DNA of 60,871 bases from an uncultured Methanosarcinales archaeon (GCA_964611745.1 CAZTBE010000002.1:1-60871); one strand, 5' to 3'. Counted from the first letter of the stretch, positions 446 through 56,967 are shown. Made by a program: numbers and translations. Notes: generated by a model from the sequence alone, not told the origin.

Positions 446-2215
446 ATGAAAAATAAAGTCCTAATTATTGGAATAGATGCTATGGATTCCAGAATAGTCG
501 ATGAACTAGAACTTCCAAATCTAAAAAGCCTAGAAACATACACCAAATTACAAACTACAATTCCACCTGAGACTCCAGTAGCATGGAGTGCGGCATCTAC
601 TGGAACAAATCCGGGAAAATATGGGATTTTTGATTTCATTAATCGAGATCTGCAAACATATATGCCAAGATTGAACTTAGCAATCGAAAAAAGAGGTATT
701 GTTAAGACAGAATTTTTTTCGCTTATGAAAGGTATACCTTTTTGGAGAATATTAAGTGAAAATAACATTCCCTCTACTATAATAAGATGGCCAGTTACAT
801 TTCCCCCGGAAAAGATAAATGGCAAAATGCTCTCAGGCCTAGGCACTGTCGATATAAAAGGTATGTTAAACAAATATTCTTTCTATACTGATGGTAATTT
901 TAATGGAGATGAAGAGAGCACTGGAAATATAATACCCATAGAAATACAAAATAATGTAATAGAGACATATATTTCTGGCCCTTTGATAAATAAGGGTGGT
1001 GAGCTTAAAGATGTAAAGAAACTTATTTCTATAATACTTAAAGAGGATAAATTAATTATAAAAATCGATAATAAAGATTATGAAATAGGATTAAAATGTT
1101 GGAGCGAGATGATCAAAACCAAATTCAAAGTATATTTTATGAGTGTATATGGCATATTTAAAATATACCTTGAATCTATAAAACCAACTTTCAAGATGTA
1201 TATGACTTCTGTACAGATAGATCCTGAAAACCAAATTTATGATATAACTTATCCTAAAGACTATGGCAAAGAACTTGAAGATAATATAGGATTATTTCAT
1301 ACATTAGGTATGCCCGAGGATACTAAAGCTGTTACTGAAAATAAAATTAGCGAGTCTGTTTTTATAGAACAAGTTAAGCAAATAGAAGAAGAGAGGAAAA
1401 AAATGTTCATATATGAATTCAAGAGATTTAATGAAGGTGCTTTAGCTTGCGTGTTTGATGCTGGCGATAGGCTTAAACATATATTTTGGAACAATAGATT
1501 AGATGATGATAGAGATGTAATAAAAAACTTATCGAAAGAGATAAAAGATTATTATGCTGAAAAAGACAAATTTATTGGGAACGTTATTTCTCAACTAGAT
1601 AAAAATACAAAATTCATAATATTTTCTGATCATGGTTTTAGTACATTCAAAAGGCAAGTAAATATCAATTCGTGGCTAGTAAAAGAAGGTTTTATGAAAT
1701 CTGATGGCAAGGGCATATTATTTGAATCTGTTGATTGGAATAGCACACAAGCATATTCTCTAGGTTTTACAAGTATATATTTGAATCTAAAAGGAAGAGA
1801 AAGAAAGGGTATTGTAAATTATGGAGAAAAAAATGATATAATAAACGAAATAATAAGGAAACTTAAAAATATTAAGGATGGAAGCAAAACAGTTCTTACT
1901 AATATATATAAAGGAAGTGAAATTTACCATGGTAAATATATAGATTTAGCTCCCGATATCGTTTTAGGATTTTCACCAGGTTACAGAATGTCTTGGAAGA
2001 ATGCAAGTGGAGGCATAGAAGACGAAATAATTTATGATAACACAGAAAAATGGAGAGGCGATCACTTAATAGATAGAACTCATGTTCCTGGTGTTTTATT
2101 CACAAACTTTAAAATAAAGAGAGATAATCCCGCTATACTTGACATTGCACCTACAGTACTTAAACTTTTAGATGTTAAAATTCCTGACTATATTGATGGA
2201 GATGTGTTAATATGA
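446..2215 (+). CDS. alkaline-phosphatase-superfamily enzyme, type I phosphodiesterase/nucleotide pyrophosphatase-like
   Basis: 589 aa. Motifs: LIIGIDAMD near the N-terminus, PPETPVAWSAASTG (Thr nucleophile context), FSDHGF and RGDH. Its stop overlaps the cysD start (ATGA at 2212-2215). Confidence 0.8.
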   Translation: MKNKVLIIGIDAMDSRIVDELELPNLKSLETYTKLQTTIPPETPVAWSAASTGTNPGKYGIFDFINRDLQTYMPRLNLAIEKRGIVKTEFFSLMKGIPFWRILSENNIPSTIIRWPVTFPPEKINGKMLSGLGTVDIKGMLNKYSFYTDGNFNGDEESTGNIIPIEIQNNVIETYISGPLINKGGELKDVKKLISIILKEDKLIIKIDNKDYEIGLKCWSEMIKTKFKVYFMSVYGIFKIYLESIKPTFKMYMTSVQIDPENQIYDITYPKDYGKELEDNIGLFHTLGMPEDTKAVTENKISESVFIEQVKQIEEERKKMFIYEFKRFNEGALACVFDAGDRLKHIFWNNRLDDDRDVIKNLSKEIKDYYAEKDKFIGNVISQLDKNTKFIIFSDHGFSTFKRQVNINSWLVKEGFMKSDGKGILFESVDWNSTQAYSLGFTSIYLNLKGRERKGIVNYGEKNDIINEIIRKLKNIKDGSKTVLTNIYKGSEIYHGKYIDLAPDIVLGFSPGYRMSWKNASGGIEDEIIYDNTEKWRGDHLIDRTHVPGVLFTNFKIKRDNPAILDIAPTVLKLLDVKIPDYIDGDVLI

Positions 2216-3015
2216 ATCATTTGGATGAATTAGAAAATAATAGCATCTATATCATCAGAGAGGCATATAAGCAATTTAAAAATATAGGTGTACTGTGGAG
2301 TATTGGAAAAGACTCTACTACATTAGTATGGCTTTGCAGAAAAGCTTTTTTTGGAAAGGTTCCATTCCCAGCAATCCATATAGATACAACTTATAAATTT
2401 CCAGAGATGTATAAATTTAGAGACTTTTTTGCAAAAGAATGGGAACTTAAATTGATGGTTGAAAAAAATCAAGAAGCTATTGATAAAGGAATAGGCTACG
2501 GAACTCACGATGCCTTTACTTGCTGCCATGAATTAAAAACAGTCGCTCTACAAAAATCGATTAAAAAACACAGCTTCAAGGCACTTCTTGTAGGAATAAG
2601 AAGAGACGAACATGGAATTCGTGCAAAAGAACGCTATTTCTCTCCAAGAGATATACAATTTAGGTGGGATTACAAAAACCAACCTGCTGAACTTTGGGAT
2701 CAATATAAAAGTAATGTCAAAGAAGATCAGCATATTAGAGTGCATCCTCTTCTTGGATGGACTGAGCTTGATGTGTGGGAATATATTAGAAGAGAAAATA
2801 TACCAATAAATGAGCTCTATTTCGCAAAAAACAGCAAGAGGTACAGAAGTCTTGGAGACATGCCAATTACTAAGCCTATAGAATCAAATGCAGACACTGT
2901 TGATAAGATAATAGAAGAATTGAAAATAACTAAAATTGCTGAAAGAAGCGGCAGATCTCAAGATAAAGAACAGGCTTATACAATGCAAAAATTAAGAAGT
3001 TTAGGTTATATGTGA
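2212..3015 (+). CDS. cysD: sulfate adenylyltransferase subunit 2 (PAPS-reductase/PP-loop fold)
   Basis: 267 aa with PP-loop motif SIGKDSTTLVWL. Length and order (directly upstream of a CysN-like GTPase) are typical of CysD. Confidence 0.9.
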   Translation: MNHLDELENNSIYIIREAYKQFKNIGVLWSIGKDSTTLVWLCRKAFFGKVPFPAIHIDTTYKFPEMYKFRDFFAKEWELKLMVEKNQEAIDKGIGYGTHDAFTCCHELKTVALQKSIKKHSFKALLVGIRRDEHGIRAKERYFSPRDIQFRWDYKNQPAELWDQYKSNVKEDQHIRVHPLLGWTELDVWEYIRRENIPINELYFAKNSKRYRSLGDMPITKPIESNADTVDKIIEELKITKIAERSGRSQDKEQAYTMQKLRSLGYM

Positions 3016-3018
3016 CAA

Positions 3019-4263
3019 ATGGAAAAAGAATGCATGAACATAGTAATCGTAGGCCACGTTGACCATGGTAAAAGTACGTTGATAGGCAGATTATTATACG
3101 ATACAAATTCGATTCCAGAAGGAATATTTGAGGAAGTTAAAAAAGTTTCTGAAGAATTAGGGAAAGAAACAGAATTTGCATATCTCCTTGATTCACTAGA
3201 GGAAGAAAGAAAGCTAAATATAACAATAGATACTACACAAATATTTTTCAAGAGCCCTAAAAAAGATTATGTAATAATAGATGCTCCAGGACATAAAGAA
3301 TTTCTAAAAAACATGATAACTGGGGCTTCATTAGCTAATGCTGCTATATTGATTATAGATTCAAATGACGGTATTCAGGAGCAGACTAAAAGACACGCTT
3401 ATATTTTAAGTATGCTTGGATTAAGACAAGTAATAGTTGTTGTTAATAAAATGGATATTACAGGTTATAATAGTGTCAAATTCAATAAAATAAAAGAAGA
3501 TATTTTAAAATTTCTTAGTAAATTAAACATAAGACCAAAATATATTATTCCTATTTCTGCTATAAAAGGAGACAATATTATTAAGAAATCTAAAAATATG
3601 CCTTGGTACAATAATTTAAGTGTATTGGAAGCTTTAGACAATTTAAATGCAAAACAAACTTTGTCAAATCAACCATTAAGGTTCCCTGTGCAGGACGTTT
3701 ATGAAATAAATAATAAAAGAATTTTAGTAGGAAAAATAGAATCAGGAAGATTAAAACAGCATGATGAGATTATCTTTCTTCCTTCAAATAAAAAATCTGA
3801 AATAAAATCAATAGAGGTTTGGAATAAAAATAAAACACATGCCGAATCTGGAGAATGTGTTGGAGTAACATTAAAAGAACCTTTGTGTATTGAGAGGGGG
3901 GAAGTGATCTGTTCAGAAGTTTCTCCAAGGATAACAAATAAATTTGAAGCAAATATTTTTTGGATGTCAAAAAACCCAACAAAAATTAATGAGAAATTAA
4001 TCTTGAAATGTGCAACCCAGGAAGTGAAATATATAATAGAGAAAATTAAGAAGAAAATCAATTCTTCTACTTTAGAGGGCATAGATGAGGACTGTGATGA
4101 ATTGAAAGAGACAGAAGTGGGGAATGTAATAATAAAGACTGAAAAACCAATTGTTATAGAAAATTTTAATTATATAGAGGGGTTAGGTAGATTTGTTCTT
4201 GTCAAAAATGACATTATTGTTTCAGGAGGAATTATACCTAATGAGGTTCTTAGATCATATTAA
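3019..4263 (+). CDS. cysN: sulfate adenylyltransferase subunit 1 (GTPase), no fused APS-kinase domain
   Basis: 414 aa. G1 [16 protein letters not shown]3 DAPGH, G4 NKMD. Too short to carry the C-terminal CysC domain. Confidence 0.9.
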
Positions 4264-15185: not shown

Positions 15186-16238
15186 TTAAGTTTGTGTTTC
15201 TTTTGCCCATTCTATAAATCTTTTTATTCCGGTTTTCAAGTCTACTTTGGCTGTGTAATTCAGCTTTTCCTTTATTTTTGTTAGGTCTGGGCATCTCCTT
15301 TTTGGGTCTGCATTGGTATATGCATCTGTAGGCCCTTCAACATTTTCTATTTCCGGATTATTACCAAGAATTTCAGCAACATTTTTTGCTAAAGTTGCCA
15401 TATTAATCTCATTATCCTCATTTCCTACATTGAACGCTTCTCCATTATAGTCTGAAAATAAGATTCTAAAAAAACCCACCAACGCGTCTGTCACATAACA
15501 AAAGGTTCTTGTATTATTCCCTGCTCCATAGACGGGAATGGGCTTTCCTTGAAATACATTTGAAACAAAGTTGGGTATTACCCTATAATCATCTAATCTC
15601 ATCCCAGGCCCATATACATTAAAAGGTCTTACTGTCTTGACTGGGATTTTGTGAACCTGATAATAACCTACACAGAGAGTCTCTCCAAGCCTCTTGGACT
15701 CATCATAATTTGATCTTGGACCTGTACAGGAAACGTTCCCAAAATAAGTTTCCGGCGTAGGGACAGATTGCGGATCTGGGTCGCCATAAACTTCACTTGA
15801 GCTAAAATATAACATGCTCTTCACATTTTTTTCCTTTGCCAATTCAAGCATATTTTTTGTTCCAAAAACCCCTACATCGATTGTCTCTATTATGAACTTA
15901 CGATAAAACTTTGGGGATGCAATTCCTGCTGCACTTATGATATAATCTACATTTTCATCTATCTTTAAGGGTTTGGTAACATCATGTTTTATTGCTTTGA
16001 AATTACGCCCTTCCTCAAGGAGATAGCTTGACCCTGTTATGAAATTGTCGACAGAAATTATGCGGCAGGGGTTTTCAAGAACATTCTTGTTCAATTCTGC
16101 AAGAGTCAAAAGAAAATATCTTCCTAAAAATCCGGCGCCTCCAGTAATAAGGACGGTTTTTCCACTTAATTTACCGGCTTCTTTACCTATGTTCTCTACA
16201 ATTGTCTTTATATCTTCTTTTAAAATCTTACTTTCCAT
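15186..16238 (-). CDS. extended SDR, UDP-glucuronate decarboxylase-like epimerase/dehydratase
   Basis: ITGGAGFLGRYF, SSSEVYGDP, YDESKRLGE, PKRRCPDLTK. Confidence 0.85.
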   Translation of the reverse strand: MESKILKEDIKTIVENIGKEAGKLSGKTVLITGGAGFLGRYFLLTLAELNKNVLENPCRIISVDNFITGSSYLLEEGRNFKAIKHDVTKPLKIDENVDYIISAAGIASPKFYRKFIIETIDVGVFGTKNMLELAKEKNVKSMLYFSSSEVYGDPDPQSVPTPETYFGNVSCTGPRSNYDESKRLGETLCVGYYQVHKIPVKTVRPFNVYGPGMRLDDYRVIPNFVSNVFQGKPIPVYGAGNNTRTFCYVTDALVGFFRILFSDYNGEAFNVGNEDNEINMATLAKNVAEILGNNPEIENVEGPTDAYTNADPKRRCPDLTKIKEKLNYTAKVDLKTGIKRFIEWAKETQT

Positions 16239-16244
16239 TTTATG

Positions 16245-16637
16245 TTAAACCAACTTGAATTTTTTTGTATGATCTGAAAAATTTTGCGTATCTCTTTGTC
16301 CCGTAGTTAGGTTGAGCATGACAGAATCTTCCAAAAATCTCATTGCATGGGCTATCATAGGTGGTGTTATAACTAAGTCTCCAGCATTAATAATCGTCTT
16401 CTCTATTTTTTCATCCTTATTGTTCAGGTTTTTGGTGGTGCTTTCATATTTGCCGCTAATCAGGTATTCATACTGTACTTGTTTAGGATGATAGTGATTT
16501 GCTCTGATAGAGCCTTTTTTTGAGGTGATGATTGCAATATGTGTTATTGGCTCTTCTAGAATATTTGCTATTACTCCCCTTTCATCCTCAAATGCAGGTT
16601 CAATTTTTATTACTTTTTCATTAGCCATCTGTTCCAC
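16245..16637 (-). CDS. small cupin, sugar-nucleotide keto-isomerase/epimerase-like (FdtA/WxcM-like)
   Basis: 130 aa. DERGVIANIL, HYHPKQ, AHAM cupin His pattern. GGGGGTGG ribosome-binding site upstream. Confidence 0.55.
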   Translation of the reverse strand: MEQMANEKVIKIEPAFEDERGVIANILEEPITHIAIITSKKGSIRANHYHPKQVQYEYLISGKYESTTKNLNNKDEKIEKTIINAGDLVITPPMIAHAMRFLEDSVMLNLTTGQRDTQNFSDHTKKFKLV

Positions 16638-16699: not shown

Positions 16700-17920
16700 C
16701 TATGCTATCTTGGGTTCTGGTAAAGGTATTATAAATTTTACTCCCTGATCAGCATATTTTCCTGTTTTTTTTAAAATTTCTTCGGCAAAATTCCATGCAA
16801 GAATTAAAATATAATCTGGTCTTTTCTTCTCTAACATGCTTGAGCTTACAACTGGAATATGCGTTCCTGGTGAATATAAACCTATCTTTAAAGGATTGTC
16901 ATCAACAATATAATCAATAAAATCCCTACCAATATTGCAGAAATTCAGCAATGTAGTTGATTTTGCAGGAGCGCCATACCCAGCAATTGACTTTTTCTGT
17001 GCTTTTATATCCCTGATGTAAGATACTAATCTCTCTTTTACATGATAAACCTTATTTGAGAAATTTTTATAAATTTCTATATCATTGATTCCAATGCCTT
17101 TCTCATATTCCAATGTCTCTTCAACCTCTTTATGAATCTCGTGGTTTCCTTCAGACTTTTTTATAAATACTCTTAAAGAACCCCCGTGGCTGTCTACTCT
17201 TTGAACATCAAATATCTCCATCCTGTGTTTTTTAAAGAAATAACTTAATGAAGTGAGAGTGTAATAAGAAAGATGCTCGTGATATACATTATCAAAAGTC
17301 ATTTTTTCCATAGTGTCTACTAAATACTGGACTTCAATAACAAATATACCATCTTCCTTAAGCAGAGTTTTTACATTGTCTGTAACATTATCAATATCAT
17401 CAATGTGGGCAAAGACGTTATTTGCAGTTACTACATCAGCATGCCCTTTTTTTCCTATAACCCTTTTTACCGCATCATTGTTGAAAAAACCATTTATAGT
17501 TTCAATGCCATCCTGCTCTGCAATTTTCACTAAATTTGCAGCAGGTTCAATACCCATCGTTTGGATTCCTAATTTCTGAAAATTTTTTAGTAAAAGCCCA
17601 TCATTACTTCCAATATCAACAACTAAAGAACCGTTATTTAAATTAAAACAATTGCATATGTCCCTAGCCATTTTAGAAAAATGAATCTTAAAAGTATTTG
17701 ACGTAGACGATACATATATATAATTTTTGAACATCAGTTCCGGAGGCACAACATAAGTCAATTGCACCAACTTGCAATTATCACAGAAAGCTAATTCTAA
17801 AGGATAGGTGTTCTCTTTATTTTCCAATTCTTCTTTTGAAAGAAAACTATTAGCTAAAGGACTTTTCCCCAATGAAAGAAATACCTTTATAGCCTCATTT
17901 CTACAAATTCTGCATATCAT
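16700..17920 (-). CDS. NDP-hexose C-methyltransferase-like SAM enzyme (zinc-ribbon N-terminus)
   Basis: CRICRN...CDNCKLVQL, VDIGSNDG, NVFAHI, HEHLSYYT. Collinear with 10052..11302. Confidence 0.8.
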   Translation of the reverse strand: MICRICRNEAIKVFLSLGKSPLANSFLSKEELENKENTYPLELAFCDNCKLVQLTYVVPPELMFKNYIYVSSTSNTFKIHFSKMARDICNCFNLNNGSLVVDIGSNDGLLLKNFQKLGIQTMGIEPAANLVKIAEQDGIETINGFFNNDAVKRVIGKKGHADVVTANNVFAHIDDIDNVTDNVKTLLKEDGIFVIEVQYLVDTMEKMTFDNVYHEHLSYYTLTSLSYFFKKHRMEIFDVQRVDSHGGSLRVFIKKSEGNHEIHKEVEETLEYEKGIGINDIEIYKNFSNKVYHVKERLVSYIRDIKAQKKSIAGYGAPAKSTTLLNFCNIGRDFIDYIVDDNPLKIGLYSPGTHIPVVSSSMLEKKRPDYILILAWNFAEEILKKTGKYADQGVKFIIPLPEPKIA

Positions 17921-27907: not shown

Positions 27908-28906
27908 TTAAATCAGTTTCTTAACACTATCGACTATTTCATCAATATCCCATTCTGGCGGAATGTCACATTTTGACTTATAGCAGCATACACAACCTTT
28001 TTTTGGGATTATTTTTATTCCCCTGGAATATAATTCAATCTCGTTAGGACTTGTAGGGCAGAAAAACGCAATAATTTTCTTTTTCAATACAATTCCTATG
28101 TGCATTGCAAGGCTGTCTGATGTGATTAAAATATTGCATAGATTCACTAAAGAGGCAAATTCCATTAAGGAATTATCACAGCCAGCATCTATTATCTGTG
28201 TTTTTACTGAGCTTTTTATTTTATTGTTTCTTTCTTTTTCTTCTGGGCCGCCAAAAAGCAACAATTTAACATTTTTTATATTATTGTTTAATTTGTCTAT
28301 TAGCTCTGCAGTTTCTTCTATGCTTAATTTTTTGTCTTCCCAGCGCCCTCCTGCTCCAGTATTGATGCCAATGGCTAAATTCTCATTTTTTATGTTGTTT
28401 TTTTCAGCAAAATTCTTTCCAAATTTTATCTCATCATTATTTAAGATTAATAGGGGTTCCTGCTTTTTATATTGCAAATCAAGAATTTTGTAAATTATTT
28501 CCTGATAAGTCTTTTTATTTTGGGCCTTTAATTCATCTGCTCTTTGCTTTCCAAACTTTGAAATCAAACCTATGTCAAACCATAGTGATGAATTTTCAGT
28601 GTAAATCTTTTTTCCATCTTTTAAATATGCTCCAATAATCTCTTTATGTTTAATTTCAGCAGCAAGCTCGCATGCAATATCCTCATCATCCAGATTTATT
28701 ATTAGATCATACTCTTTGTTTTTTAATTCTTCATCAATTAAATAAATCTTATCAATTAGATTGTTGTTTTTTAGAATATCAAAGGACTCCTTTTTAGTAA
28801 TCCAATCTATTGTACAATTTTCATATTTGGATTTCAATCCATGAAGTATGGAAGTGGTTCTAATGACATCTCCAATTGCTCCAAGCTTTATTATGAGTAT
28901 ATTCAT
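27908..28906 (-). CDS. GT9 family glycosyltransferase (heptosyltransferase-like)
   Basis: ILIIKLGAIGDVIRTT N-terminal motif, SDSLAMHIG, C-terminal Cys cluster CVCCYKSKC. Confidence 0.8.
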   Translation of the reverse strand: MNILIIKLGAIGDVIRTTSILHGLKSKYENCTIDWITKKESFDILKNNNLIDKIYLIDEELKNKEYDLIINLDDEDIACELAAEIKHKEIIGAYLKDGKKIYTENSSLWFDIGLISKFGKQRADELKAQNKKTYQEIIYKILDLQYKKQEPLLILNNDEIKFGKNFAEKNNIKNENLAIGINTGAGGRWEDKKLSIEETAELIDKLNNNIKNVKLLLFGGPEEKERNNKIKSSVKTQIIDAGCDNSLMEFASLVNLCNILITSDSLAMHIGIVLKKKIIAFFCPTSPNEIELYSRGIKIIPKKGCVCCYKSKCDIPPEWDIDEIVDSVKKLI

Positions 28907-50707: not shown

Positions 50708-51403
50708 TTAGTCCATAATCCTATATTTTATTAGATAAAATACTGCTTTTATTCCGTCCTTCCATGTTATCTTTTTGCCTTCATTAAATTTTCTTCCTAC
50801 AAAATTAATCGGGATTTCTGTTATTTTATAGCCTTTCTTGAGAATTTTGGCTGTAATTTCCGGTTCAAAGTCAAAGCGTTTTGCTTTTAAATTCATATTT
50901 TCTATCACTTCTTTCCTGAATACTTTATACCCTGTTTCCATATCAGTTATTTTTGTTCCGTATAATATGTTTGTAACTGCTGTAAGAAGCATATTGCCTA
51001 AATAATGAAGCTTATACATGTTTTTTATGTTCTCTCTAATTGCTTCTATCCTGGAACCATAGACCACTTTTGTTCTATTTTCCATTATTGGTTTTAACAA
51101 TTTTGCATATTCTATTGGATTGTATTCCAAATCAGCATCCTGAATTAGGATTATATCTCCAGTTGCATGTTTTAAAGCAGTCCTTATCGCAGTTCCTTTT
51201 CCCCTATTTTTTTGGTGGAAAAATATCTTTAAGCTAGAGTCTTTTAATTCTGACAGGATTTTTTTTGTGTTATCTGTTGAAAAATCATCAACAATAACAA
51301 TCTCTTTTGTTATGTCTTTTAATTCAGTTCTTTTTACTTTGCTGATTACTTCTAAGATATTGTTTTCTTCGTTGTATACTGGGATTATTATTGATAATTT
51401 CAT
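50708..51403 (-). CDS. GT2, polyprenyl-phosphate sugar synthase-like
   Basis: IIIPVYNEENNI, VDDFSTD, QDADLE. 231 aa. Confidence 0.85.
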   Translation of the reverse strand: MKLSIIIPVYNEENNILEVISKVKRTELKDITKEIVIVDDFSTDNTKKILSELKDSSLKIFFHQKNRGKGTAIRTALKHATGDIILIQDADLEYNPIEYAKLLKPIMENRTKVVYGSRIEAIRENIKNMYKLHYLGNMLLTAVTNILYGTKITDMETGYKVFRKEVIENMNLKAKRFDFEPEITAKILKKGYKITEIPINFVGRKFNEGKKITWKDGIKAVFYLIKYRIMD

Positions 51404-51448: not shown

Positions 51449-51991
51449 TCAATTACCTTTATGCAACTCAATAATCTTTTTTATCAAATCAGTTGTGGAA
51501 TAGCCTTTAACCTCAGGTATTAAAATTATCTTGCCGTTATTTTTTTCTACAGTGTCTTTTTCAATTATTTGGTCCATCTTGTAGTCCCCGCCTTTGGCAT
51601 GAATATTTGGTTTTATTTCTTCAAGAAATTTTATTGGGTTGTTTTCACTGAATATTGTCACATAGTCAACACATTCTAACGAAGCAAGAGCTTCTGCTCT
51701 ATCATTTTCGTGGTTTAATGGCCTTTTTTGTCCTTTAATTTGTTTTGTTGATAAATTAGAGTTTATAGCTACAATTAAAACATCTCCTAGCTTTTTTGCT
51801 TCTTTTAAATATCTTATATGGCCGATATGCAGAATATCAAAGACACCATTTGTTGTTACAACTACCTTATTCTCTTTTTTTAGGTCTTCAACTATATTTT
51901 TTAGTTCACTCGAAAAAACAATCTTTTTTCGGTGTCCCGAAAAGCTTTGCTTTTCTAGGACGTCAATAGTTTTTATTTTTTGTTTTTCCAT
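51449..51991 (-). CDS. hldC: D-beta-D-heptose 1-phosphate adenylyltransferase (RfaE domain II-like cytidylyltransferase fold)
   Basis: TNGVFDILHIGHIRYL, GDVLIVAINS, KGGDY. Confidence 0.8.
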   Translation of the reverse strand: MEKQKIKTIDVLEKQSFSGHRKKIVFSSELKNIVEDLKKENKVVVTTNGVFDILHIGHIRYLKEAKKLGDVLIVAINSNLSTKQIKGQKRPLNHENDRAEALASLECVDYVTIFSENNPIKFLEEIKPNIHAKGGDYKMDQIIEKDTVEKNNGKIILIPEVKGYSTTDLIKKIIELHKGN

Positions 51992-52027
51992 TTTCTGCCA
52001 TTAATTTTTATCAAATCTATTATATTA

Positions 52028-52579
52028 TTATTGCTTTTTATTGTTCATAATAAAATCAGCAGCTTTGAAAAAATCTTCAGCAATAAAATCAGGCTTTAGA
52101 CCTTTTTTTCCCAGATTCTCAAAATGCTTTTTACCATGGCCAGTTAGCATATAGACATTTCTGCAATTAGCCTTCACTCCCATCTCAATATCATGCAGGT
52201 GATCTCCTATCACCCAGGAGTTTTTTATGTCTATGTCGAATTCCTTTGCTGCTTCCTCGATGTATTTTGTGCTTGGCTTTCTGCAGTCACAACTTTCCTC
52301 TTTTTTATGCGGACAATGATATATTTTTTTTATATCTATACTTCCTTTTTTCAACTCATCAATCAGTTTTTCATTGAATTTTCTCATATCTTCCTCTGTA
52401 TACATTCCTAATCCTATGCCGGATTGGTTTGTTATGATAACAAAAATAAATTCACCTGAAAGAGCTTTTAACCCTTCTATTACTCCTGGCAGCAGTTTGA
52501 AATCTTCCACTTTGTAGACATAATAATTTGGGTCCTCTACTAAAGTTCCATCCCTGTCCAGATAAATAGCTTTAACCAT
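52028..52579 (-). CDS. gmhB: D,D-heptose 1,7-bisphosphate phosphatase (HAD)
   Basis: YLDRDGTL HAD motif I and Zn-finger-like CPHKKEESCDCRKP. ATG 52579 overlaps the upstream stop (ATGGTTAA). The ORF track opens at TTG 52606. Confidence 0.8.
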   Translation of the reverse strand: MVKAIYLDRDGTLVEDPNYYVYKVEDFKLLPGVIEGLKALSGEFIFVIITNQSGIGLGMYTEEDMRKFNEKLIDELKKGSIDIKKIYHCPHKKEESCDCRKPSTKYIEEAAKEFDIDIKNSWVIGDHLHDIEMGVKANCRNVYMLTGHGKKHFENLGKKGLKPDFIAEDFFKAADFIMNNKKQ

Positions 52580-53543
52580 TTTCAATGCTCTTTTTAAGCT
52601 CTTCAATACTTACTGTAGATGTCCCTATCTTTCCTACTGTTATGCCTGCTGCATGATTAGCTATTATGGCGGCTTCTTCAAATGAAGCTCCTGATGCTAA
52701 AGCTAATGTTAGGGTAGCAACAGATGTATCTCCTGCACCAACAATATCATAGACCTCTTTGGCAAATGTTGGTATACTTGTGATTTTTCCATCTTTTTCA
52801 AACAGAGACATGCCTTTTTCCCCTTTTGTTATCAAAACATTGCTGTCTAGCTCTTTTAACAGTTCTTTTCCAATCTTTTCTGCATTAGCATCTGACTCTT
52901 CTTCAATACCAGCCATCTCATACGCCTCTTTATGGTTTGGTGATATCAGAGTAGCATTTTTATAGAACTCTTTGTGCTTTGGTTTCGGGTCAACTACAAT
53001 TATCTTATTTTTTTCCTTGCAAAGTCCTATTACCTTTTCCACCAGGTTTTTTGTTATTACACCTTTTGCATAATCTGAGATTATGATTGCATCAATTTCA
53101 TCTATTTTTTTGTAAATGAAGTCAAGAATATCATTTTCTGTTTTAACATCAACATAACCTTTCTTTTCATAATCAAATCTTAGCAATTGCTGATTTCTTC
53201 CAAAGACCCTGACTTTCTGTATGGTTCTTTCATTTCCATCTTCTATTAAACCACTTACATCTATACTTCTTTTTTTAAGCTCGTCTATTAATTTGTTTTT
53301 TGTTGAATCTTTTCCAACAACACCTATCATGAATGATTTTGCATTTAAAGCTGCTATATTATTTGCTACGTTTGCAGCGCCTCCTGGAGTATAGCTTTCT
53401 TTGATAACATTGACAACCTGGACAGGAGCTTCCGGGCTTATTCTTGAAACACTGCCCCAGATATATTTGTCCAGCATAACATCCCCTAAGACTATGATTT
53501 TTTTATTTTTGAATTGCTCAATAACTCTAATTAAATTATTCAT
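52572..53543 (-). CDS. hldA: D-beta-D-heptose 7-phosphate kinase (RfaE domain I, PfkB family)
   Basis: VLGDVMLDKYIWGSVSRISPEAPV, GGAANVANN, GAGDT. ATG 53543 overlaps the hldD stop (ATGAATAA). Confidence 0.8.
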   Translation of the reverse strand: MNNLIRVIEQFKNKKIIVLGDVMLDKYIWGSVSRISPEAPVQVVNVIKESYTPGGAANVANNIAALNAKSFMIGVVGKDSTKNKLIDELKKRSIDVSGLIEDGNERTIQKVRVFGRNQQLLRFDYEKKGYVDVKTENDILDFIYKKIDEIDAIIISDYAKGVITKNLVEKVIGLCKEKNKIIVVDPKPKHKEFYKNATLISPNHKEAYEMAGIEEESDANAEKIGKELLKELDSNVLITKGEKGMSLFEKDGKITSIPTFAKEVYDIVGAGDTSVATLTLALASGASFEEAAIIANHAAGITVGKIGTSTVSIEELKKSIENG

Positions 53544-54447
53544 TTTCCCACCCATTTTCATCTAACCAATTAAAATAATCTTTAATACTTTCTTTTAATG
53601 GCCATTTTGCCTTAAAGCCAAGAATATTTTCTGCTTTTGTTGTGTCTGCCTGTGTATCAGCTTGGTAAGTTTTAGGATCATAAGGCATGTCAAAATATTC
53701 TGTTTTGAGATTTTTTCCTAAAACATCATTTAAAACTTTAATTAAATCATTGAAGGTTGTTGCAATGCCTGTTCCTACATTATAAATTCCGCTTTTTGCA
53801 TTTACTGCTTTGATAGTAGCATTGACAGCATCTTTGACATAAATATTGTCGCGTTTTTGCTCGCCAAGTTTAAAAATTCTTGGATTTTTTCCAGCTTTAA
53901 TTTGTTTGCCTAAATGATATATCATAGATGCTGGACGTCCTTTATACGCTTCTCTAGGGCCGAAAACATTAAAGTATCTTAATCCTACAATGTGCATGTC
54001 GTCAAATAATTTTTCTGCCATATTATCCATTTCTAGTTTTGATTTTCCATAAGCACTTAGAATTTCTTTTTTCTGGCCTTCTTTCATTGGAACTTGCCCA
54101 TTACCATATAACCCTGCTGTTGATGCGTAAATTAATTTGGCATTGTTGTTTTTTGCAAGCTCTATTATATTTTTGAAACCTTGTATATTCTTATTGTAAG
54201 TTTCCTCATCATTTGGATATCTTGGATCAGTTATTGCAGCTTCATGGAAAATCACATCAAATTTTTCATTAAGCTCAAATGATTCTGAAACATCTAATTC
54301 AATAATTTTACCTTTAAAACCATTTAAATTATTTTTATTTCCAGAATTTAAATTGTCAACTATTGTGACTTCATGCCCTTGTTTTTCTAGTTCTAAAGCT
54401 AAATTAGAGCCTATAAAACCTGCACCACCTGTTACTAAGCATTTCAT
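53536..54447 (-). CDS. hldD: ADP-L-glycero-D-manno-heptose 6-epimerase-like SDR
   Basis: VTGGAGFIGSNL, HEAAITD, YGKSKLEMD. 303 aa. The start overlaps the cupin stop (ATGA). Confidence 0.75.
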   Translation of the reverse strand: MKCLVTGGAGFIGSNLALELEKQGHEVTIVDNLNSGNKNNLNGFKGKIIELDVSESFELNEKFDVIFHEAAITDPRYPNDEETYNKNIQGFKNIIELAKNNNAKLIYASTAGLYGNGQVPMKEGQKKEILSAYGKSKLEMDNMAEKLFDDMHIVGLRYFNVFGPREAYKGRPASMIYHLGKQIKAGKNPRIFKLGEQKRDNIYVKDAVNATIKAVNAKSGIYNVGTGIATTFNDLIKVLNDVLGKNLKTEYFDMPYDPKTYQADTQADTTKAENILGFKAKWPLKESIKDYFNWLDENGWENE

Positions 54448-54803
54448 TTTGGCAGCTCCAACTTGTCTAAATCAACTTTTCCTGATAATTCATCGCGGTA
54501 TGAATCAGAATCTTCATGATGTGTTGAGAATTCTATTATTTCACTGGGTTCTAAGCCTGTAAAGCGGTGTTTTGTATTTGGTGTTATAAGGATAGAATGC
54601 CCAGGAAGCATTATCTGTTTTTTATTGTCAGTTTCCATTAAGACCTTGCCTGCTAGTATATAGAATGTTTCATCCTTGTTTTTGTGGTAATGCATTGAGC
54701 ATCTGAAACCTTTATTTAGGATTAACTTTTTTCCGCAATAATTTCTATTGGCAATTATTTCTTCATGACCCCATACTTTCTTAACTATCTTATGTTCTGT
54801 CAT
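54444..54803 (-). CDS. cupin, phosphomannose-isomerase-type (candidate sedoheptulose-7-phosphate isomerase)
   Basis: 119 aa. WGHEE, SMHYHKNKDETFYILAG, TKHRF. First gene of the heptose operon. Confidence 0.6.
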   Translation of the reverse strand: MTEHKIVKKVWGHEEIIANRNYCGKKLILNKGFRCSMHYHKNKDETFYILAGKVLMETDNKKQIMLPGHSILITPNTKHRFTGLEPSEIIEFSTHHEDSDSYRDELSGKVDLDKLELPK

Positions 54804-54853
54804 ATTAGTATGAATAGTTCATACTTCTAGTATATAAATGTTTCGTTATTGTA

Positions 54854-54963
54854 CGTGCCCGTACAACAGCGTATTGGGGTGTCTCAGACACCCCGAGACC
54901 GCAACATCAGGAGCTGTCTCGGATCGTGCAGTGCGAAGCACTGTACACTAGTGTGCGGGTACG
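54854..54963 (+). ncRNA. candidate structured RNA or structured DNA element E (four-way junction)
   Basis: Closing stem 54854-54865 with 54952-54963 (12 bp, 2 G-U). Hairpin GGGGTGTC/GACACCCC (54876-54894). Hairpin GAGAC/GTCTC (54895-54920). Hairpin GTGCAGTGC/GCACTGTAC (54926-54946, 1 G-U). The wobble pairs work only on the + strand. No known RNA family recognised. Confidence 0.3.
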
Positions 54964-55014
54964 CATAAATAGAAAAATATATAAAGTATGAACTTATACT
55001 ACTATTTTATACCT

Positions 55015-55764
55015 ATGACTAAACCTAAAATCGCAATAAGTCTGGATAAAAGCCTGCTTAATCTTGTAGACAGCAAGGTGGACGGTTCTGTAATAAGGTC
55101 CAGAAGCCAGGCAATGGAGTTTTTTCTGAAAAAAGGTCTGCAGGAGCAGTCTATCAATACAGCTGTTTTACTGATAAAAGGAGAGCACCAGAAAAATTTG
55201 TTAAAGAAACTGAAAGGAAAATCATTATTAAAAAATCAATTAGAATTTTTTGTCAAAAATGGGATAAATAATGTATACATTGTTACGCAGCATACTAAAA
55301 ATATTAATTTGTTATTAAATGAAATTTCTGATGCGAAAATTAATGTTGAAGTAGTTGAGACAAATGCTAAGGGAAATGCAGAGGCCTTGCAATCTGTCAA
55401 AGAAAAAATAAAAAATAGCTTTATTGTAATGTCAGGAGACACGTATAATAATTTTGATCTGTTGAAGATGATAAAAAAGCATCTGGAATTGGATAAAATG
55501 ACTACAATGGGATTAATGACTAGGGAGAAAATCAGCGGCTATGGAACTGCAATCTTAGATGGGGATCTTATTGTTGATTTCCAGGAAAAACCAAAACAAA
55601 GCTCTACGAATATTGTCAATGCTGGGATTTATATCTTCAAACCAGAAGTTTTTGAGCTGTTTGAGAATGCCAATAGTTTAGAAAAAGATTTGTTTCCTAA
55701 ACTTGCAAGATTAAAGCAGCTTATTGGGTTTTTTACGTATGGAGAATATGAGCATTTAGAGTGA
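55015..55764 (+). CDS. ribbon-helix-helix (CopG-like) domain fused to a degenerate sugar nucleotidyltransferase-like domain
   Basis: The ORF opens at ATG 54988, but the TATA-like box at 54975-54986 favours ATG 55015. KIAISLDKSLLNLVD...RSRSQAMEFFLKKGL fits beta-alpha-alpha RHH. The NTP_transferase-like core keeps SGDTY, EKP and NAGIY but has LLIKGEHQKNL where GGxGTRL is expected. Confidence 0.65.
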   Translation: MTKPKIAISLDKSLLNLVDSKVDGSVIRSRSQAMEFFLKKGLQEQSINTAVLLIKGEHQKNLLKKLKGKSLLKNQLEFFVKNGINNVYIVTQHTKNINLLLNEISDAKINVEVVETNAKGNAEALQSVKEKIKNSFIVMSGDTYNNFDLLKMIKKHLELDKMTTMGLMTREKISGYGTAILDGDLIVDFQEKPKQSSTNIVNAGIYIFKPEVFELFENANSLEKDLFPKLARLKQLIGFFTYGEYEHLE

Positions 55765-56967
55765 TTACCTCTTTCTTTTTTTCATAACCTTATCAACCAA
55801 AGAAGTAACATCATCAACCTGTATCCTTTTTACACATGCATTTTCCATGCCGTGCTTACATTCACCAACTTCACCTTTATGGACATTTATGCATGCTTTT
55901 TGAAAAGCAAGCGGCACACTACGTGCGAGGTGGGATTTTTTGTAGATAGAATAATTATTTTTTCCGAATGGTGCAAATCTTACTGGCAGGTTGCATCCAA
56001 ATAAACCAATTGTTTTTACATTTTGAGCAGCTGCAACGTGCATTGGCCCTGAATCATTGCCAATAAATAATCTACATAAGGAAATCAGATAAAACATTTC
56101 TCTAACATTTATTTCTCCAGAAACATTAAAAGAATTATTTTTACCTACGGAGTTGGTACCGGATTTTGTCCGAGTATTTTCAATTAAATTTTGCAATTCG
56201 TCGATTAAATTTTTTTCTTTATCATTTCCAATTAAAAATATTTTTGCATTATACTTTTTTATTAAATTGTCTGCAAGTTTTGCAAACTTTTCTTTTGGCC
56301 ACATCCTTGATTTTGCACTTTCAGCAGCTCCAACACCAAAGCCAACAAGAAAATTTTTTTTCTCAATATTATATTTTTTTAATAAGCTATCGACATTTTT
56401 TTTATCGTTTTTTGAATAATTTAATTGAGATAATTTTTCAACTCTTTTTTTAATTCCTAATGGCTTTAATAAATCTAAAAATGTATAAACAACGTGCTGC
56501 CTATCATTATAATCAACTTTGTCAGTGTACAAATTTGACCTTATTCCATGAGAAAATCCAATTCTGCGCTTTCCTGTAAAAAATGCTATTATGGATGATA
56601 TGTTGAGGTATTCTTCCATGTCTATTGCAAGATCATATTTTTTGAAATTAAGTGACATAAAAAGTTTTATAGAAATTGGATTTAATTTCAGAACTTTTAC
56701 ATCATTAATATATTTATTCTTATAATAGACTTCCTTGTTTCTTCCAGTCACTAAAATATCTATATTGCTTTTTTTATACTGCTTTCTTAACACTTCTATT
56801 GCTGGGAGTGTTAATATTGTTTCGCCTATGCCCCATAACTGGATAATCAATATTTTATTATATTTATGGATTTTTTTATATCTGAGAAGCTTGTTTATTG
56901 ATAGAAATGAACATAATAAGGAACCAGCATATTTATCCAGAAATTTTATTAGATTAACGGATACCAT
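55765..56967 (-). CDS. GT9 family glycosyltransferase (heptosyltransferase-like)
   Basis: ILIIQLWGIGETILTLP, GNDSGPMHVAAA, C-terminal Cys cluster. Its stop codon abuts the stop of the convergent gene. Confidence 0.8.
   Translation of the reverse strand: MVSVNLIKFLDKYAGSLLCSFLSINKLLRYKKIHKYNKILIIQLWGIGETILTLPAIEVLRKQYKKSNIDILVTGRNKEVYYKNKYINDVKVLKLNPISIKLFMSLNFKKYDLAIDMEEYLNISSIIAFFTGKRRIGFSHGIRSNLYTDKVDYNDRQHVVYTFLDLLKPLGIKKRVEKLSQLNYSKNDKKNVDSLLKKYNIEKKNFLVGFGVGAAESAKSRMWPKEKFAKLADNLIKKYNAKIFLIGNDKEKNLIDELQNLIENTRTKSGTNSVGKNNSFNVSGEINVREMFYLISLCRLFIGNDSGPMHVAAAQNVKTIGLFGCNLPVRFAPFGKNNYSIYKKSHLARSVPLAFQKACINVHKGEVGECKHGMENACVKRIQVDDVTSLVDKVMKKRKR

What the first reader, a model, noticed from the sequence alone, without database searches (positions are those of the whole stretch)
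51449..54803. ADP-heptose operon with split HldA/HldC and a phosphomannose-isomerase-type cupin in the position where GmhA is expected
Seen:
- Five minus-strand genes are coupled by overlapping stop and start codons (ATGA, ATGAATAA, ATGGTTAA).
- Their order is cupin 54444..54803, hldD, hldA (PfkB kinase), gmhB and hldC (adenylyltransferase).
- No SIS-domain isomerase is recognisable in the window.
- The cupin has the WG.E...H.H...E...G...H pattern of type II phosphomannose isomerases.

Established:
- The pathway needs sedoheptulose-7-phosphate isomerase (GmhA, SIS fold). That reaction is a ketose-to-manno-aldose isomerisation, chemically analogous to Fru6P to Man6P.
- Cupin-type phosphosugar isomerases exist in archaea.

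Inference: the cupin is a non-orthologous replacement of GmhA.
Basis: partly seen in the sequence, partly recalled or inferred. Interest (0 to 1): 0.65.

Follow-up and report, generated by a model that had tools for sequence, protein, structure and literature searches.

The report
Cupin enzyme replacing GmhA in ADP-heptose operon
A small metal-binding cupin protein at the head of an archaeal ADP-heptose operon sits exactly where close relatives carry the normal first enzyme of the pathway (GmhA), and elsewhere is fused to the next enzymes, so it is very probably an undescribed, unrelated enzyme for the same first step of heptose sugar synthesis.

Summary
On the minus strand lie cupin, hldD, hldA, gmhB and hldC. 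Three junctions overlap; gmhB and hldC are separated by a 36-nt spacer. No SIS domain occurs in any window ORF of 100 aa or more.

The window is a glycosylation island of a DPANN (Woesearchaeota-type) archaeon.

- **In-situ displacement.** Loci selected on HldA alone share one synteny: GT9, divergent NTP-transferase, X, hldD, hldA, gmhB, hldC. X is either this cupin or a bona fide SIS GmhA, never both. One such pair shares 75-94% identity in all six flanking proteins.
- **Shared promoter element.** The same palindrome precedes the first gene whichever isomerase is present.
- **Fusions.** The cupin is fused to HldA, HldA-HldC, GmhB, a GT9 and an HldD-like SDR in nine architectures. These make up 32 of the 150 best family representatives. 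An HldA-GmhA(SIS) fusion parallels the HldA-cupin fusions.
- **Chemistry.** The fold and motifs match small cupin phosphomannose and D-lyxose isomerases, which convert a ketose to a manno-aldose.

I found no published description. Enzyme activity is untested, and absence of gmhA from the whole genome could not be checked.

The parts
54444..54803 (-). 119-aa monocupin, proposed sedoheptulose-7-phosphate isomerase (GmhA analogue). Predicted metal ligands are H38, H40, E45 and H79.
   Evidence: Pfam Cupin_2 and PF01050. AF2 model with pLDDT 90.6. Best PDB folds are the Thermococcus cupin phosphomannose isomerases 7ZVY/7ZVM. Family invariants. Displacement and fusion evidence.
53536..54447 (-). 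hldD-like ADP-glycero-manno-heptose 6-epimerase (SDR). Its start overlaps the cupin stop (ATGA).
   Evidence: TIGR02197 270.8 bits against a 274.6 cut-off. Junction read.
52572..53543 (-). [quoted passage not shown] Its start overlaps the hldD stop (ATGAATAA).
   Evidence: TIGR02198 391.5 bits, above the 345 cut-off. Junction read.
52028..52579 (-). gmhB-like HAD-IIIA heptose-1,7-bisphosphate phosphatase. Its start overlaps the hldA stop (ATGGTTAA).
   Evidence: PRK08942 152.8 bits (cut-off 178). TIGR01656 132.7 bits, above the 84.15 cut-off. Junction read.
51449..51991 (-). hldC, heptose-1-phosphate adenylyltransferase. It follows gmhB after a 36-nt spacer.
   Evidence: TIGR02199 186.1 bits, above the 181.5 cut-off. 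Spacer read.
50708..51403 (-). GT2 glycosyltransferase of the AglJ / dolichyl-phosphate-hexose type, conserved downstream of hldC in relatives.
54807..54825 (.). Perfect palindrome AGTATGAATAGTTCATACT, 4 nt upstream of the cupin start codon. It is a likely operator or promoter element.
   Evidence: An exact copy sits in the same position in 32 related loci, including the GmhA-type loci L097, L105 and L106.
55015..55764 (+). Divergently transcribed sugar-1-phosphate nucleotidyltransferase with an N-terminal ribbon-helix-helix-like segment. The 249-aa form is the one called in related contigs. It is a candidate regulator of the operon; this is an inference.
   Evidence: PF00483 at residues 68-229, with a weak NikR N-terminal hit. 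Conserved next to both cupin-type and GmhA-type operons.
55765..56967 (-). GT9 heptosyltransferase, the likely consumer of the ADP-heptose.
   Evidence: PF01075 117.7 bits; TIGR02195 112.6 bits. Conserved in relatives.

Best explanation
**Proposed function.** The 119-aa cupin is the first enzyme of this organism's ADP-heptose pathway. [quoted passage not shown] That is the reaction normally done by the unrelated SIS-fold enzyme GmhA.

**Proposed mechanism (inferred).**
- A divalent metal is held by H38, H40, E45 and H79 in the cupin barrel.
- The metal polarises the C1/C2 oxygens of the open-chain sugar.
- Isomerisation proceeds through an enediolate, as in the related cupin phosphomannose and D-lyxose isomerases, which also give a manno-configured aldose.
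- The invariant basic residues K9, K25, K43 and R103 are candidate phosphate binders.

**Rest of the pathway (family assignments).**
- HldA phosphorylates the product at C1.
- GmhB removes the 7-phosphate.
- HldC adenylylates the sugar.
- HldD epimerises C6.
- The neighbouring GT9 heptosyltransferases then use the sugar, probably for a surface glycan. The island also carries STT3/AglB just beyond the window.

**Shown versus inferred.**
- Shown: gene identities, operon structure, family-wide association, fusions, and in-situ alternation with GmhA.
- Inferred: the catalytic activity, the substrate, the metal ligands' role and the phosphate contacts.
For: **1. In-situ alternation with GmhA**
- Loci were fetched by HldA similarity only, then mapped. 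They share the order GT9 / NTP-transferase(-) / X / hldD / hldA / gmhB / hldC.
- X is the cupin in L091, L093, L095, L096, L103 and L109.
- X is a SIS GmhA in L097, L099, L102 and L105. TIGR00441 scores are 227.8, 239.6, 200.3 and 183.8 bits against a 209.45 cut-off.
- Within 2.5 kb of HldA, 11 loci have the cupin, 13 have GmhA and 0 have both.
- L099 (GmhA) and L089 (cupin) share 94, 83, 79, 77, 75 and 75% identity in NTP-transferase, HldD, HldA, GmhB, HldC and GT9.
- GmhA-type loci nest at four or more places among cupin-type loci in an HldA tree.

**2. Same cis element**
- The same palindrome precedes the first gene in both operon types.

**3. Fusions**
- cupin-HldA in Peribacteria; cupin-HldA-HldC in Bdellovibrionota; HldA-cupin in Woesearchaeota; HldA-HldC-cupin, cupin-GmhB and GT9-cupin-HldA elsewhere.
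- 32 of the 150 best 50%-identity cluster representatives are such fusions. None is fused to a SIS domain.
- L106 carries an HldA-GmhA(SIS) fusion with the same layout as the HldA-cupin fusions.

**4. Association independent of hldD**
- cupin-hldA-gmhB-hldC-GT9 operons lacking hldD occur in L003/L038, L032, L033 and L042.

**5. Linkage and absence of GmhA nearby**
- 45 of 80 cupin-selected loci have HldA immediately downstream.
- No GmhA-like ORF occurs in 1.2 Mb of flanking sequence except one divergent paralogue, and none in the window.

**6. Chemistry**
- The protein passes Pfam PF01050.
- Best Foldseek hits are the Thermococcus cupin phosphomannose isomerases, TM 0.74.
- A profile alignment to B. 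subtilis D-lyxose isomerase shares YC.K.L.L..G..C..H.H...K.ETF..GKV.
- The metal-binding motif is complete and invariant in 226 sequences.

**7. The product is a heptose**
- HldD, which epimerises the secondary C6 alcohol of a heptose, is in the operon.
- HldA and HldC score above the equivalog cut-offs.
Against: - No biochemical or genetic test exists. The function rests on context and homology.
- Only 60.9 kb of this genome was available, so a gmhA elsewhere cannot be excluded.
- In one genome (L032 = L148) a divergent GmhA-like gene lies 6.9 kb from the cupin operon. It scores 107 bits on TIGR00441, below the cut-off, and sits in a second module with its own divergent kinase and nucleotidyltransferase.
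- 35 of the 80 cupin-selected loci show no hld gene within 10 kb; about 29 of these have enough flank to judge. Most are Planctomycetota, where the cupin lies next to ddl and fab genes. Some are DPANN, where it lies between gyrB and gyrA. The family is therefore not always linked to heptose genes.
- Sequence similarity to characterised isomerases is weak (18-26% identity in structural alignments), and the cupin fold hosts many other chemistries.
- The mutual-exclusion counts are not phylogenetically independent.
Confidence: 0.8

Rival explanations
1. The cupin is an ordinary phosphomannose isomerase (fructose 6-phosphate to mannose 6-phosphate). It would feed GDP-mannose synthesis together with the divergently transcribed nucleotidyltransferase, as a split version of bifunctional type II PMI/GMP enzymes. 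A gmhA elsewhere would make the heptose precursor.
For: - The protein passes Pfam PF01050, the type II PMI C-terminal domain.
- The best structural matches are annotated phosphomannose isomerases.
- An NTP-transferase gene is its conserved divergent neighbour.
- One family representative is a cupin-NTP-transferase fusion (P0286).
- Many family members are not linked to heptose genes.
Against: - The NTP-transferase stays in place when the cupin is exchanged for a bona fide GmhA (L099, L102, L105). It therefore belongs to the operon, not to the cupin.
- The cupin is translationally coupled or fused to HldA, HldC and GmhB far more often than to any nucleotidyltransferase (31 fusions against 1).
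- It persists in cupin-hldA-gmhB-hldC operons that have no neighbouring NTP-transferase (L003).
- A PMI would not be expected to alternate one-for-one with GmhA in a single slot.
- A promiscuous enzyme doing both reactions is not excluded.
Confidence: 0.08
2. The cupin is a tailoring enzyme acting later in the pathway, for example a C3/C5 epimerase or ketoisomerase on the nucleotide-heptose. It would resemble the RmlC-like cupins of Campylobacter heptose modification or FdtA-type isomerases.
For: - Cupin-fold C3/C5 epimerases act on GDP-heptose derivatives in C. jejuni (PMC7949155, found).
- The cupin lies next to the SDR epimerase hldD in this window.
- Two family representatives are cupin-SDR fusions.
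Against: - No RmlC- or FdtA-type entry appears among sequence matches to solved structures up to E = 1, nor among Pfam or NCBIfam hits.
- The protein has a complete, invariant His/His/Glu/His metal motif. From my own knowledge, RmlC-type epimerases lack this.
- Those epimerases need a 4-keto intermediate made by a dehydratase, and none belongs to the conserved module.
- The cupin stays in operons without hldD.
- This explanation leaves the isomerase step unfilled and does not account for the one-for-one alternation with GmhA.
Confidence: 0.06
3. The cupin is a non-catalytic or regulatory sugar-binding subunit, for example a sensor or chaperone for the kinase. The isomerase step would be supplied by an unlinked or unrecognised enzyme.
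For: - Small cupins can serve as ligand-binding domains. AraC_binding and EutQ-like Pfam models give weak hits to some fused members.
- The family also occurs in housekeeping neighbourhoods.
Against: - Very strong conservation of a full catalytic-type metal site and about 23 invariant residues across archaea and bacteria.
- Positional exchange with an enzyme, GmhA, rather than with a regulator.
- The operon already has a candidate regulator in the RHH-bearing neighbour and its palindrome.
Confidence: 0.03

Closest known systems
GmhA (sedoheptulose-7-phosphate isomerase; SIS fold; TIGR00441, PF13580)
   Same: - Proposed same reaction and same place in the pathway.
- Occupies the same operon slot in close relatives.
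- Fused to HldA in the same way (L106 compared with L113, L118 and P0156).
- Both are metal-dependent. GmhA uses Zn2+ according to PMC11056994 (abstract).
   Different: - No sequence or fold relationship. GmhA is a roughly 190-aa alpha/beta SIS domain; this protein is a 119-aa beta-barrel cupin.
- It gives no hit to GmhA or SIS models.
Type II phosphomannose isomerase cupin domain (PF01050) and the small stand-alone Thermococcus phosphomannose isomerases (PDB 7ZVY, 7ZVM)
   Same: - Same monocupin fold and size, with TM 0.74.
- Same His/His/Glu/His motif and N-terminal WG motif.
- Same stereochemical outcome: 2-ketose phosphate to manno-aldose phosphate.
   Different: - Only 18-20% identity.
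- A distinct and very tightly conserved family signature (WGxE, YCxK, SxHxH, KxExF, ExST, DxxR).
- Genomic association with heptose genes rather than mannose genes.
- The proposed substrate has seven carbons.
D-lyxose/D-mannose isomerase (PF07385; B. subtilis YdaE 2Y0O, Thermofilum 7NZO)
   Same: - Second-best isomerase match in sequence, with a shared YC.K.L.L..G..C..H.H...K.ETF motif.
- A cupin aldose-ketose isomerase that gives manno/lyxo-configured aldoses.
   Different: - Those enzymes are 170-200 aa and act on unphosphorylated sugars.
- The match covers only part of the protein.
Cupin-type phosphoglucose isomerase of Thermococcales (for example P. furiosus 4LUL, T. litoralis 1J3R)
   Same: - An archaeal precedent for a cupin replacing a SIS-type sugar-phosphate isomerase.
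- Metal-dependent.
   Different: - Fold-level similarity only, TM 0.56-0.61 at ranks 41 and 48.
- About 190 aa.
- It produces the gluco epimer, not the manno epimer.
Multifunctional NDP-heptose biosynthetic enzymes (HldE kinase/adenylyltransferase; isomerase-kinase-nucleotidyltransferase fusions reported by Tang et al. 2024, as summarised in PMC11461863)
   Same: The cupin-HldA-HldC and HldA-HldC-cupin fusions have the same logic: isomerase, kinase and nucleotidyltransferase in one chain.
   Different: The summary I read does not say which fold the isomerase module of those fusions has; I take it to be GmhA-like (SIS) from my own knowledge. Here it is a cupin.
C. jejuni heptose C3/C5 epimerases (RmlC-like cupins; PMC7949155)
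   Same: Cupin fold, and involvement in heptose metabolism.
   Different: - They act on GDP-4-keto-6-deoxy-heptoses.
- No detectable sequence similarity here.
- No metal motif there (from my own knowledge), whereas the motif is complete here.

Membership tests
Cupin superfamily (Cupin_2, PF07883) | Beta-barrel with the two-motif metal site G(X)5HXH(X)3-4E(X)6G ... H | tested here: met
   PF07883 43.6 bits, above 27.2. Motif 1 matches exactly at G32...G52, plus H79 (sequence). The AF2 model is an all-beta barrel with pLDDT 90.6.
Type II phosphomannose isomerase, C-terminal domain (PF01050) | Score above the Pfam gathering threshold | tested here: met
   29.4 bits against 23.6, covering residues 2-93. 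The margin is small. Several fused relatives fall below the threshold.
Bifunctional GMP/PMI (TIGR01479, ManC/AlgA type) | N-terminal nucleotidyltransferase plus C-terminal PMI domain in one protein, with an equivalog-level score | tested here: not met
   28.8 bits against a cut-off of 372.95. Only the last roughly 95 profile positions match.
Phosphomannose isomerase (activity) | Interconverts fructose 6-phosphate and mannose 6-phosphate | not testable with these tools
   Requires an enzyme assay.
GmhA (TIGR00441; SIS_2 PF13580) | SIS fold, or sequence similarity to GmhA | tested here: not met
   No SIS or GmhA hit for the cupin. phmmer with two GmhA queries finds nothing in the window. The cupin is proposed to work like GmhA without being a member of its family.
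GmhA (function) | [quoted passage not shown] | tested here: inconclusive
   Supported indirectly by positional exchange with bona fide GmhA, by mutual exclusion and by fusions. There is no biochemical test.
D-lyxose isomerase (PF07385) | Full-length match to the roughly 220-position profile | tested here: inconclusive
   24.7 bits against 20.8 for the whole protein, but only positions 83-112 align and no stretch passes on its own.
RmlC-like sugar-nucleotide 3,5-epimerases / FdtA ketoisomerases | Sequence similarity to dTDP-sugar epimerase or FdtA families | tested here: not met
   No such family in Pfam or NCBIfam hits. None among PDB sequence matches up to E = 1. No characterised RmlC or FdtA enzyme among the top 50 Foldseek hits, only two unannotated structural-genomics 'RmlC-like cupin' entries, 2PFW and 3FJS.
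[quoted passage not shown] | Kinase HldA, phosphatase GmhB, adenylyltransferase HldC and epimerase HldD all present | tested here: met
   HldA and HldC score above the equivalog cut-offs. HldD is 3.8 bits below its cut-off. GmhB is the best hit but below the equivalog cut-off.

The most novel reading that the evidence does not exclude
This cupin family is a previously unrecognised, non-homologous sedoheptulose-7-phosphate isomerase.

- It has repeatedly swapped places with GmhA.
- It is widespread in DPANN archaea, CPR bacteria (Peribacteria, Peregrinibacteria), Bdellovibrionota, Opitutaceae and Planctomycetota.
- If so, NDP-heptose synthesis (an innate-immune agonist and a target of GmhA inhibitors) exists in many lineages that homology-based censuses score as lacking the first step.
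- A further possibility is that the enzyme is promiscuous and also serves as the phosphomannose isomerase of these reduced genomes.
Probability: 0.75. Interest if true: 0.75.

Novelty: new variant of a known kind. Interest (0 to 1): 0.72.

Why it matters
**An unrecognised route to a studied reaction.** GmhA is treated as the universal first committed enzyme of heptose nucleotide synthesis, and it is a target for antibiotic adjuvants. A second, unrelated enzyme for this step would be a clear case of non-orthologous gene displacement in a well-studied pathway.

**Consequences for surveys and reconstructions.**
- It would change how pathway presence is called in metagenome-derived genomes of DPANN archaea, CPR bacteria, Bdellovibrionota and Planctomycetota.
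- It bears on recent surveys of NDP-heptose producers "across kingdoms", which searched for the isomerase by homology.

**Biology of the archaea involved.** It points to heptose-containing surface glycans in DPANN archaea, since GT9 heptosyltransferases lie next to an AglB/STT3 island.

**Biocatalysis.** The natural isomerase-kinase(-adenylyltransferase) fusions could be useful for making ADP-heptose.

**Testability.** The prediction can be checked directly with one recombinant 119-aa protein and an E. coli gmhA mutant.

Tried and rejected
- **Whole-genome absence of gmhA.** I could not test this.
- **Literature.** Four searches for a cupin-type sedoheptulose-7-phosphate or phosphoheptose isomerase, or for heptose in DPANN, found nothing relevant. 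The library is open-access only, so prior description elsewhere is not excluded.
- **RNA genes.** Rfam and tRNA scans of the window and of the GC-rich intergenic element were negative.
- **Epimerase idea.** Rejected because of the metal motif, the lack of similarity, and the operons without hldD.
- **Split PMI/GMP idea.** Rejected as the main explanation because the NTP-transferase remains when GmhA replaces the cupin.
- **L032 GmhA-like gene as a refutation.** I considered this. The gene is a divergent paralogue (107 bits against a 209 cut-off) inside a separate module with its own divergent kinase, nucleotidyltransferase and B12-radical-SAM gene. It is a caveat, not a refutation.
- **Planctomycetota and gyrase-linked contexts.** These gave no functional clue.
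- **Failed script.** That tree is neighbour-joining without support values.

Full report
**1. The observation**

The region 51449-54803 carries five minus-strand genes. Pfam and NCBIfam identify them as follows:

| Gene | Coordinates | Key score |
|---|---|---|
| cupin (119 aa) | 54444-54803 | Cupin_2 43.6 bits; type II PMI domain PF01050 29.4 bits (gathering score 23.6); weak partial D-lyxose isomerase hit |
| hldD-like SDR | 53536-54447 | TIGR02197 270.8 bits (cut-off 274.6) |
| hldA | 52572-53543 | TIGR02198 391.5 bits (cut-off 345) |
| gmhB-like HAD-IIIA phosphatase | 52028-52579 | PRK08942 152.8 bits (cut-off 178) |
| hldC | 51449-51991 | TIGR02199 186.1 bits (cut-off 181.5) |

These fix the hldA start at 53543 and the gmhB start at 52579. 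The fourth junction, gmhB to hldC, is a 36-nt spacer and not an overlap.

No SIS domain is present in the window:
- Pfam scans of the window ORFs of 100 aa or more found none; seven further ORFs are covered only by precomputed Pfam calls for the identical contig, and six short ones, mostly overlapping longer genes, by neither.
- phmmer with E. coli GmhA found nothing in any reading frame. I recalled that sequence from memory and verified it against PDB 2I22 at 419 bits.
- phmmer with a DPANN GmhA-like protein also found nothing.

The cupin has W11-G12-x-E14 and a textbook cupin motif 1 (G32-x5-H38-x-H40-x4-E45-x6-G52), plus H79.

**2. The organism and its surroundings**

- Cupin homologues of 70-97% identity come from Woesearchaeota and Nanoarchaeota MAGs. 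The identical protein occurs on metagenome (JGI) contigs and in MAG GCA_030751015.1. The window is therefore from a DPANN archaeon.
- The whole 60.9 kb is a glycosylation island. It holds many GT2, GT4 and PMT_2 transferases, two GT9 heptosyltransferases (55765-56967 and 27908-28906), sugar SDRs, C-methyltransferases, B12-radical-SAM enzymes and sulfate-activation genes.
- An STT3/AglB gene lies just beyond the window end in a sister contig (L008).
- A nucleotidyltransferase with an N-terminal RHH-like segment is transcribed divergently from the cupin.

**3. Conservation of the association**

I scanned one genome per GTDB species with a cupin alignment and obtained 80 loci. They come from DPANN archaea (some mislabelled Methanosarcinales), CPR bacteria (Peribacteria, Peregrinibacteria, one Nomurabacteria bin), Bdellovibrionota, Opitutaceae and many Planctomycetota.

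- tblastn with the window proteins shows HldA immediately downstream of the cupin in 45 of the 80 loci. It sits either directly after the cupin or after hldD.
- Operons of the form cupin-hldA-gmhB-hldC-GT9 without hldD exist (L003/L038, L032, L033, L042). The cupin therefore goes with the core pathway and not with the epimerase.
- The Planctomycetota copies (53-62% identity) and a few DPANN copies are not linked to heptose genes. They lie next to ddl and fab genes, or between gyrB and gyrA. Unlinked gmhA is also normal in bacteria, so this is neutral, but it is a caveat.

**4. Fusions**

The open reading frames run through both domains, and Pfam confirms the domain content:
- Peribacteria and Peregrinibacteria: cupin-HldA (L058, L068, L073, L076, L083).
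- Bdellovibrionota: cupin-HldA-HldC (L069, L072, L085; 608-610 aa).
- One Woesearchaeote (L067) and two metagenome contigs of unassigned origin (L113, L118): HldA-cupin.

A protein search with the triple fusion found further clusters, including HldA-HldC-cupin (P0142).

An exhaustive profile search of 1.84 billion cluster representatives found 5251 family members at E up to 1e-3 and 85 at E up to 1e-30. Among the best 150, 32 are fused to heptose-pathway enzymes:

| Architecture | Count |
|---|---|
| HldA-cupin | 14 |
| cupin-HldA | 9 |
| cupin-SDR (HldD-like) | 2 |
| cupin-GmhB | 2 |
| GT9-cupin-HldA | 1 |
| HldA-HldC-cupin | 1 |
| HldC-cupin | 1 |
| cupin-HldA-HldC | 1 |
| cupin-NTP-transferase | 1 |

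None is fused to a SIS domain. The cupin sits at either end and has several partners, which implies several independent fusion events.

**5. In-situ displacement of GmhA: the decisive comparison**

To avoid selecting on the cupin, I scanned metagenome contigs with an HldA alignment and mapped the 80 best loci.

- The DPANN-type loci share one architecture: GT9, NTP-transferase (opposite strand), X, hldD, hldA, gmhB, hldC. In some loci hldD is replaced by an unrelated gene of about 300 aa.
- X is the cupin in L091, L093, L095, L096, L103 and L109. A more divergent cupin fills the slot in L104 and L107.
- X is a canonical SIS GmhA in L097, L099, L102 and L105. TIGR00441 scores are 227.8, 239.6, 200.3 and 183.8 bits against a cut-off of 209.45, with 40-54% identity to E. 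coli GmhA.
- L106 has an HldA-GmhA(SIS) fusion. Its GmhA part scores 214.9 bits, and its layout matches the HldA-cupin fusions.

Counts:
- Among the 13 syntenic loci with enough upstream sequence, 8 have the cupin and 5 have GmhA. None has both, and none has neither.
- Across all 80 loci, 11 have the cupin and 13 have GmhA within 2.5 kb of HldA, and none has both.

L099 (GmhA) and L089 (cupin) share 94, 83, 79, 77, 75 and 75% identity in NTP-transferase, HldD, HldA, GmhB, HldC and GT9, with identical gene order. They differ essentially in which isomerase gene fills the first slot.

In a neighbour-joining HldA tree, GmhA-type loci nest among cupin-type loci at four or more places (no support values). 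This suggests repeated exchange.

The perfect palindrome AGTATGAAnnnTTCATACT lies at 54807-54825, 4 nt before the cupin ATG. It occurs exactly once in each of 32 loci, always just upstream of the first operon gene. That gene may be the cupin or GmhA (L097, L105, L106).

Because the downstream enzymes are orthologous in the two operon types, they should need the same substrate. The cupin's product should therefore be the GmhA product.

**6. Is the chemistry plausible?**

- The AF2 model is confident (pLDDT 90.6).
- Its best PDB matches are the roughly 110-aa Thermococcus cupin phosphomannose isomerases 7ZVY and 7ZVM (TM 0.74). KdgF, D-lyxose isomerases and cupin phosphoglucose isomerases follow.
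- A family profile aligns to B. subtilis D-lyxose isomerase with a shared YC.K.L.L..G..C..H.H...K.ETF..GKV block.
- Phosphomannose and lyxose isomerases convert a 2-ketose into the manno/lyxo aldose. Sedoheptulose 7-phosphate is fructose 6-phosphate extended by one CHOH unit with the same C3-C5 configuration, which is established carbohydrate chemistry. [quoted passage not shown]
- Across 226 free-standing and fused family members, these residues are 92-100% conserved: K9, W11, G12, E14, N19, Y22, C23, K25, S36, H38, H40, K43, E45, F47, G52, H79, F81, E91, S93, T94, H96, D100 and R103. That set is the metal site plus several basic residues that could hold a phosphate; the phosphate role is an inference.

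**7. Rivals**

- **Plain PMI working with the neighbouring nucleotidyltransferase.** This is disfavoured. That neighbour stays when GmhA replaces the cupin, and fusions to heptose enzymes outnumber the single NTP-transferase fusion 31 to 1. A promiscuous PMI/S7P isomerase is not excluded.
- **Later-acting epimerase, as in Campylobacter (PMC7949155).** This is disfavoured by the metal motif, by the lack of any similarity, by the operons without hldD, and because it would leave the isomerase step empty.
- **The L032/L148 case.** One genome has a GmhA-like gene 6.9 kb from the cupin operon. It is a divergent paralogue (107 bits) in a separate module with its own divergent kinase, nucleotidyltransferase and B12-radical-SAM gene.

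**8. Comparison with what is known, and novelty**

- Full-text searches found no paper linking a cupin with sedoheptulose-7-phosphate or phosphoheptose isomerase.
[quoted passage not shown] It does not mention a cupin (PMC11461863).
- The closest precedent in kind is the cupin phosphoglucose isomerase of Thermococcales, which replaces the usual PGI.
- I therefore rate this as a new variant of a known kind: a known pathway and reaction, carried out by an unrelated and apparently undescribed enzyme family. It is not a member of the GmhA family, but is proposed to work like it.

**9. Verdict**

My confidence that the cupin is the pathway's sedoheptulose-7-phosphate isomerase is about 0.8.
- What is missing is an enzyme assay or complementation test, and a whole-genome census.

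Noticed in passing
window 54807-54825 and 54985-55003; 32 related loci: The perfect palindrome AGTATGAAnnnTTCATACT lies 4 nt upstream of the cupin start. A degenerate copy (3 mismatches) lies just upstream of the divergent nucleotidyltransferase gene. The exact palindrome is conserved in 32 loci, in front of both cupin-headed and GmhA-headed operons. The nucleotidyltransferase has an N-terminal ribbon-helix-helix-like segment (weak NikR hit) and may be the regulator that binds it.
   Followed up: partly
window 54830-54965 (intergenic, between the cupin and the nucleotidyltransferase): A roughly 135-nt GC-rich insert (about 55-60% GC in a 31% GC genome) folds into a long closing stem with three hairpins. 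MFE is -63 kcal/mol with z = -5.5 on the + strand and z = -4.5 on the - strand. It has no Rfam or tRNA match. It occurs only in contigs of this same species; most relatives have a short AT-rich spacer. A few relatives (L018, L028, L035/L103, L046) carry GC-rich inserts at the same place that blastn did not match to this one.
   Followed up: partly
L097 788-1708, L104 2117-3013, L105 5059-5970, L106 5085-6005, L107 2061-3017: In some DPANN heptose operons the hldD slot is filled by an unrelated protein of about 300 aa. It has only weak deoxyhypusine-synthase-like (PF01916) hits. This happens in both cupin-type and GmhA-type operons. It may be a second non-orthologous replacement, or a different tailoring step.
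   Followed up: partly
L032 16197-19657 (same as L148): A second, divergent heptose-like module lies 4-7 kb downstream of the cupin operon. It holds a GmhA-like SIS protein (107 bits), an HldA-like PfkB kinase (126 bits), an HldC-like nucleotidyltransferase (120 bits) and a B12-binding radical-SAM enzyme. All score below the equivalog cut-offs. It may make a different, perhaps methylated, nucleotide sugar.
   Followed up: partly
window 16245-16637 (-): A second, unrelated 130-aa cupin lies between a sugar C-methyltransferase (16700-17920) and an SDR epimerase/dehydratase (15186-16238). It is probably an epimerase or ketoisomerase of a branched or deoxy-sugar pathway.
   Followed up: no
window 1-60871: The whole window is a glycosylation island. 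It has two GT9 heptosyltransferases (27908-28906 and 55765-56967), many GT2, GT4 and PMT_2 transferases, UDP-sugar dehydrogenase and SDR genes, two C-methyltransferases and three B12-radical-SAM genes. It also has sulfate-activation-like genes (PAPS-reductase-fold 2212-3015 and an EF-Tu-like GTPase 3019-4263) next to a sulfatase and a phosphodiesterase. This hints at sulfated, heptose-containing glycans in a DPANN archaeon.
   Followed up: partly
L048, L050, L055, L056; L049-L090 (Planctomycetota): In one DPANN subgroup the cupin lies between gyrB and gyrA. In many Planctomycetota it lies downstream of a D-Ala-D-Ala-ligase-like gene, near fabD, fabG and fabF. No heptose genes lie within 10 kb in either case. 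Whether these genomes have hld genes, or gmhA, elsewhere is unknown.
   Followed up: partly
L012, L013, L015, L016, L018, L023, L032 and others; L031: Many contigs with DPANN-type gene content are titled 'uncultured Methanosarcinales archaeon' in their records. One contig of a Nomurabacteria (CPR) bin, L031, carries an 81%-identical cupin and the full archaeal-type operon. These look like taxonomic mislabelling, bin contamination or recent transfer.
   Followed up: no
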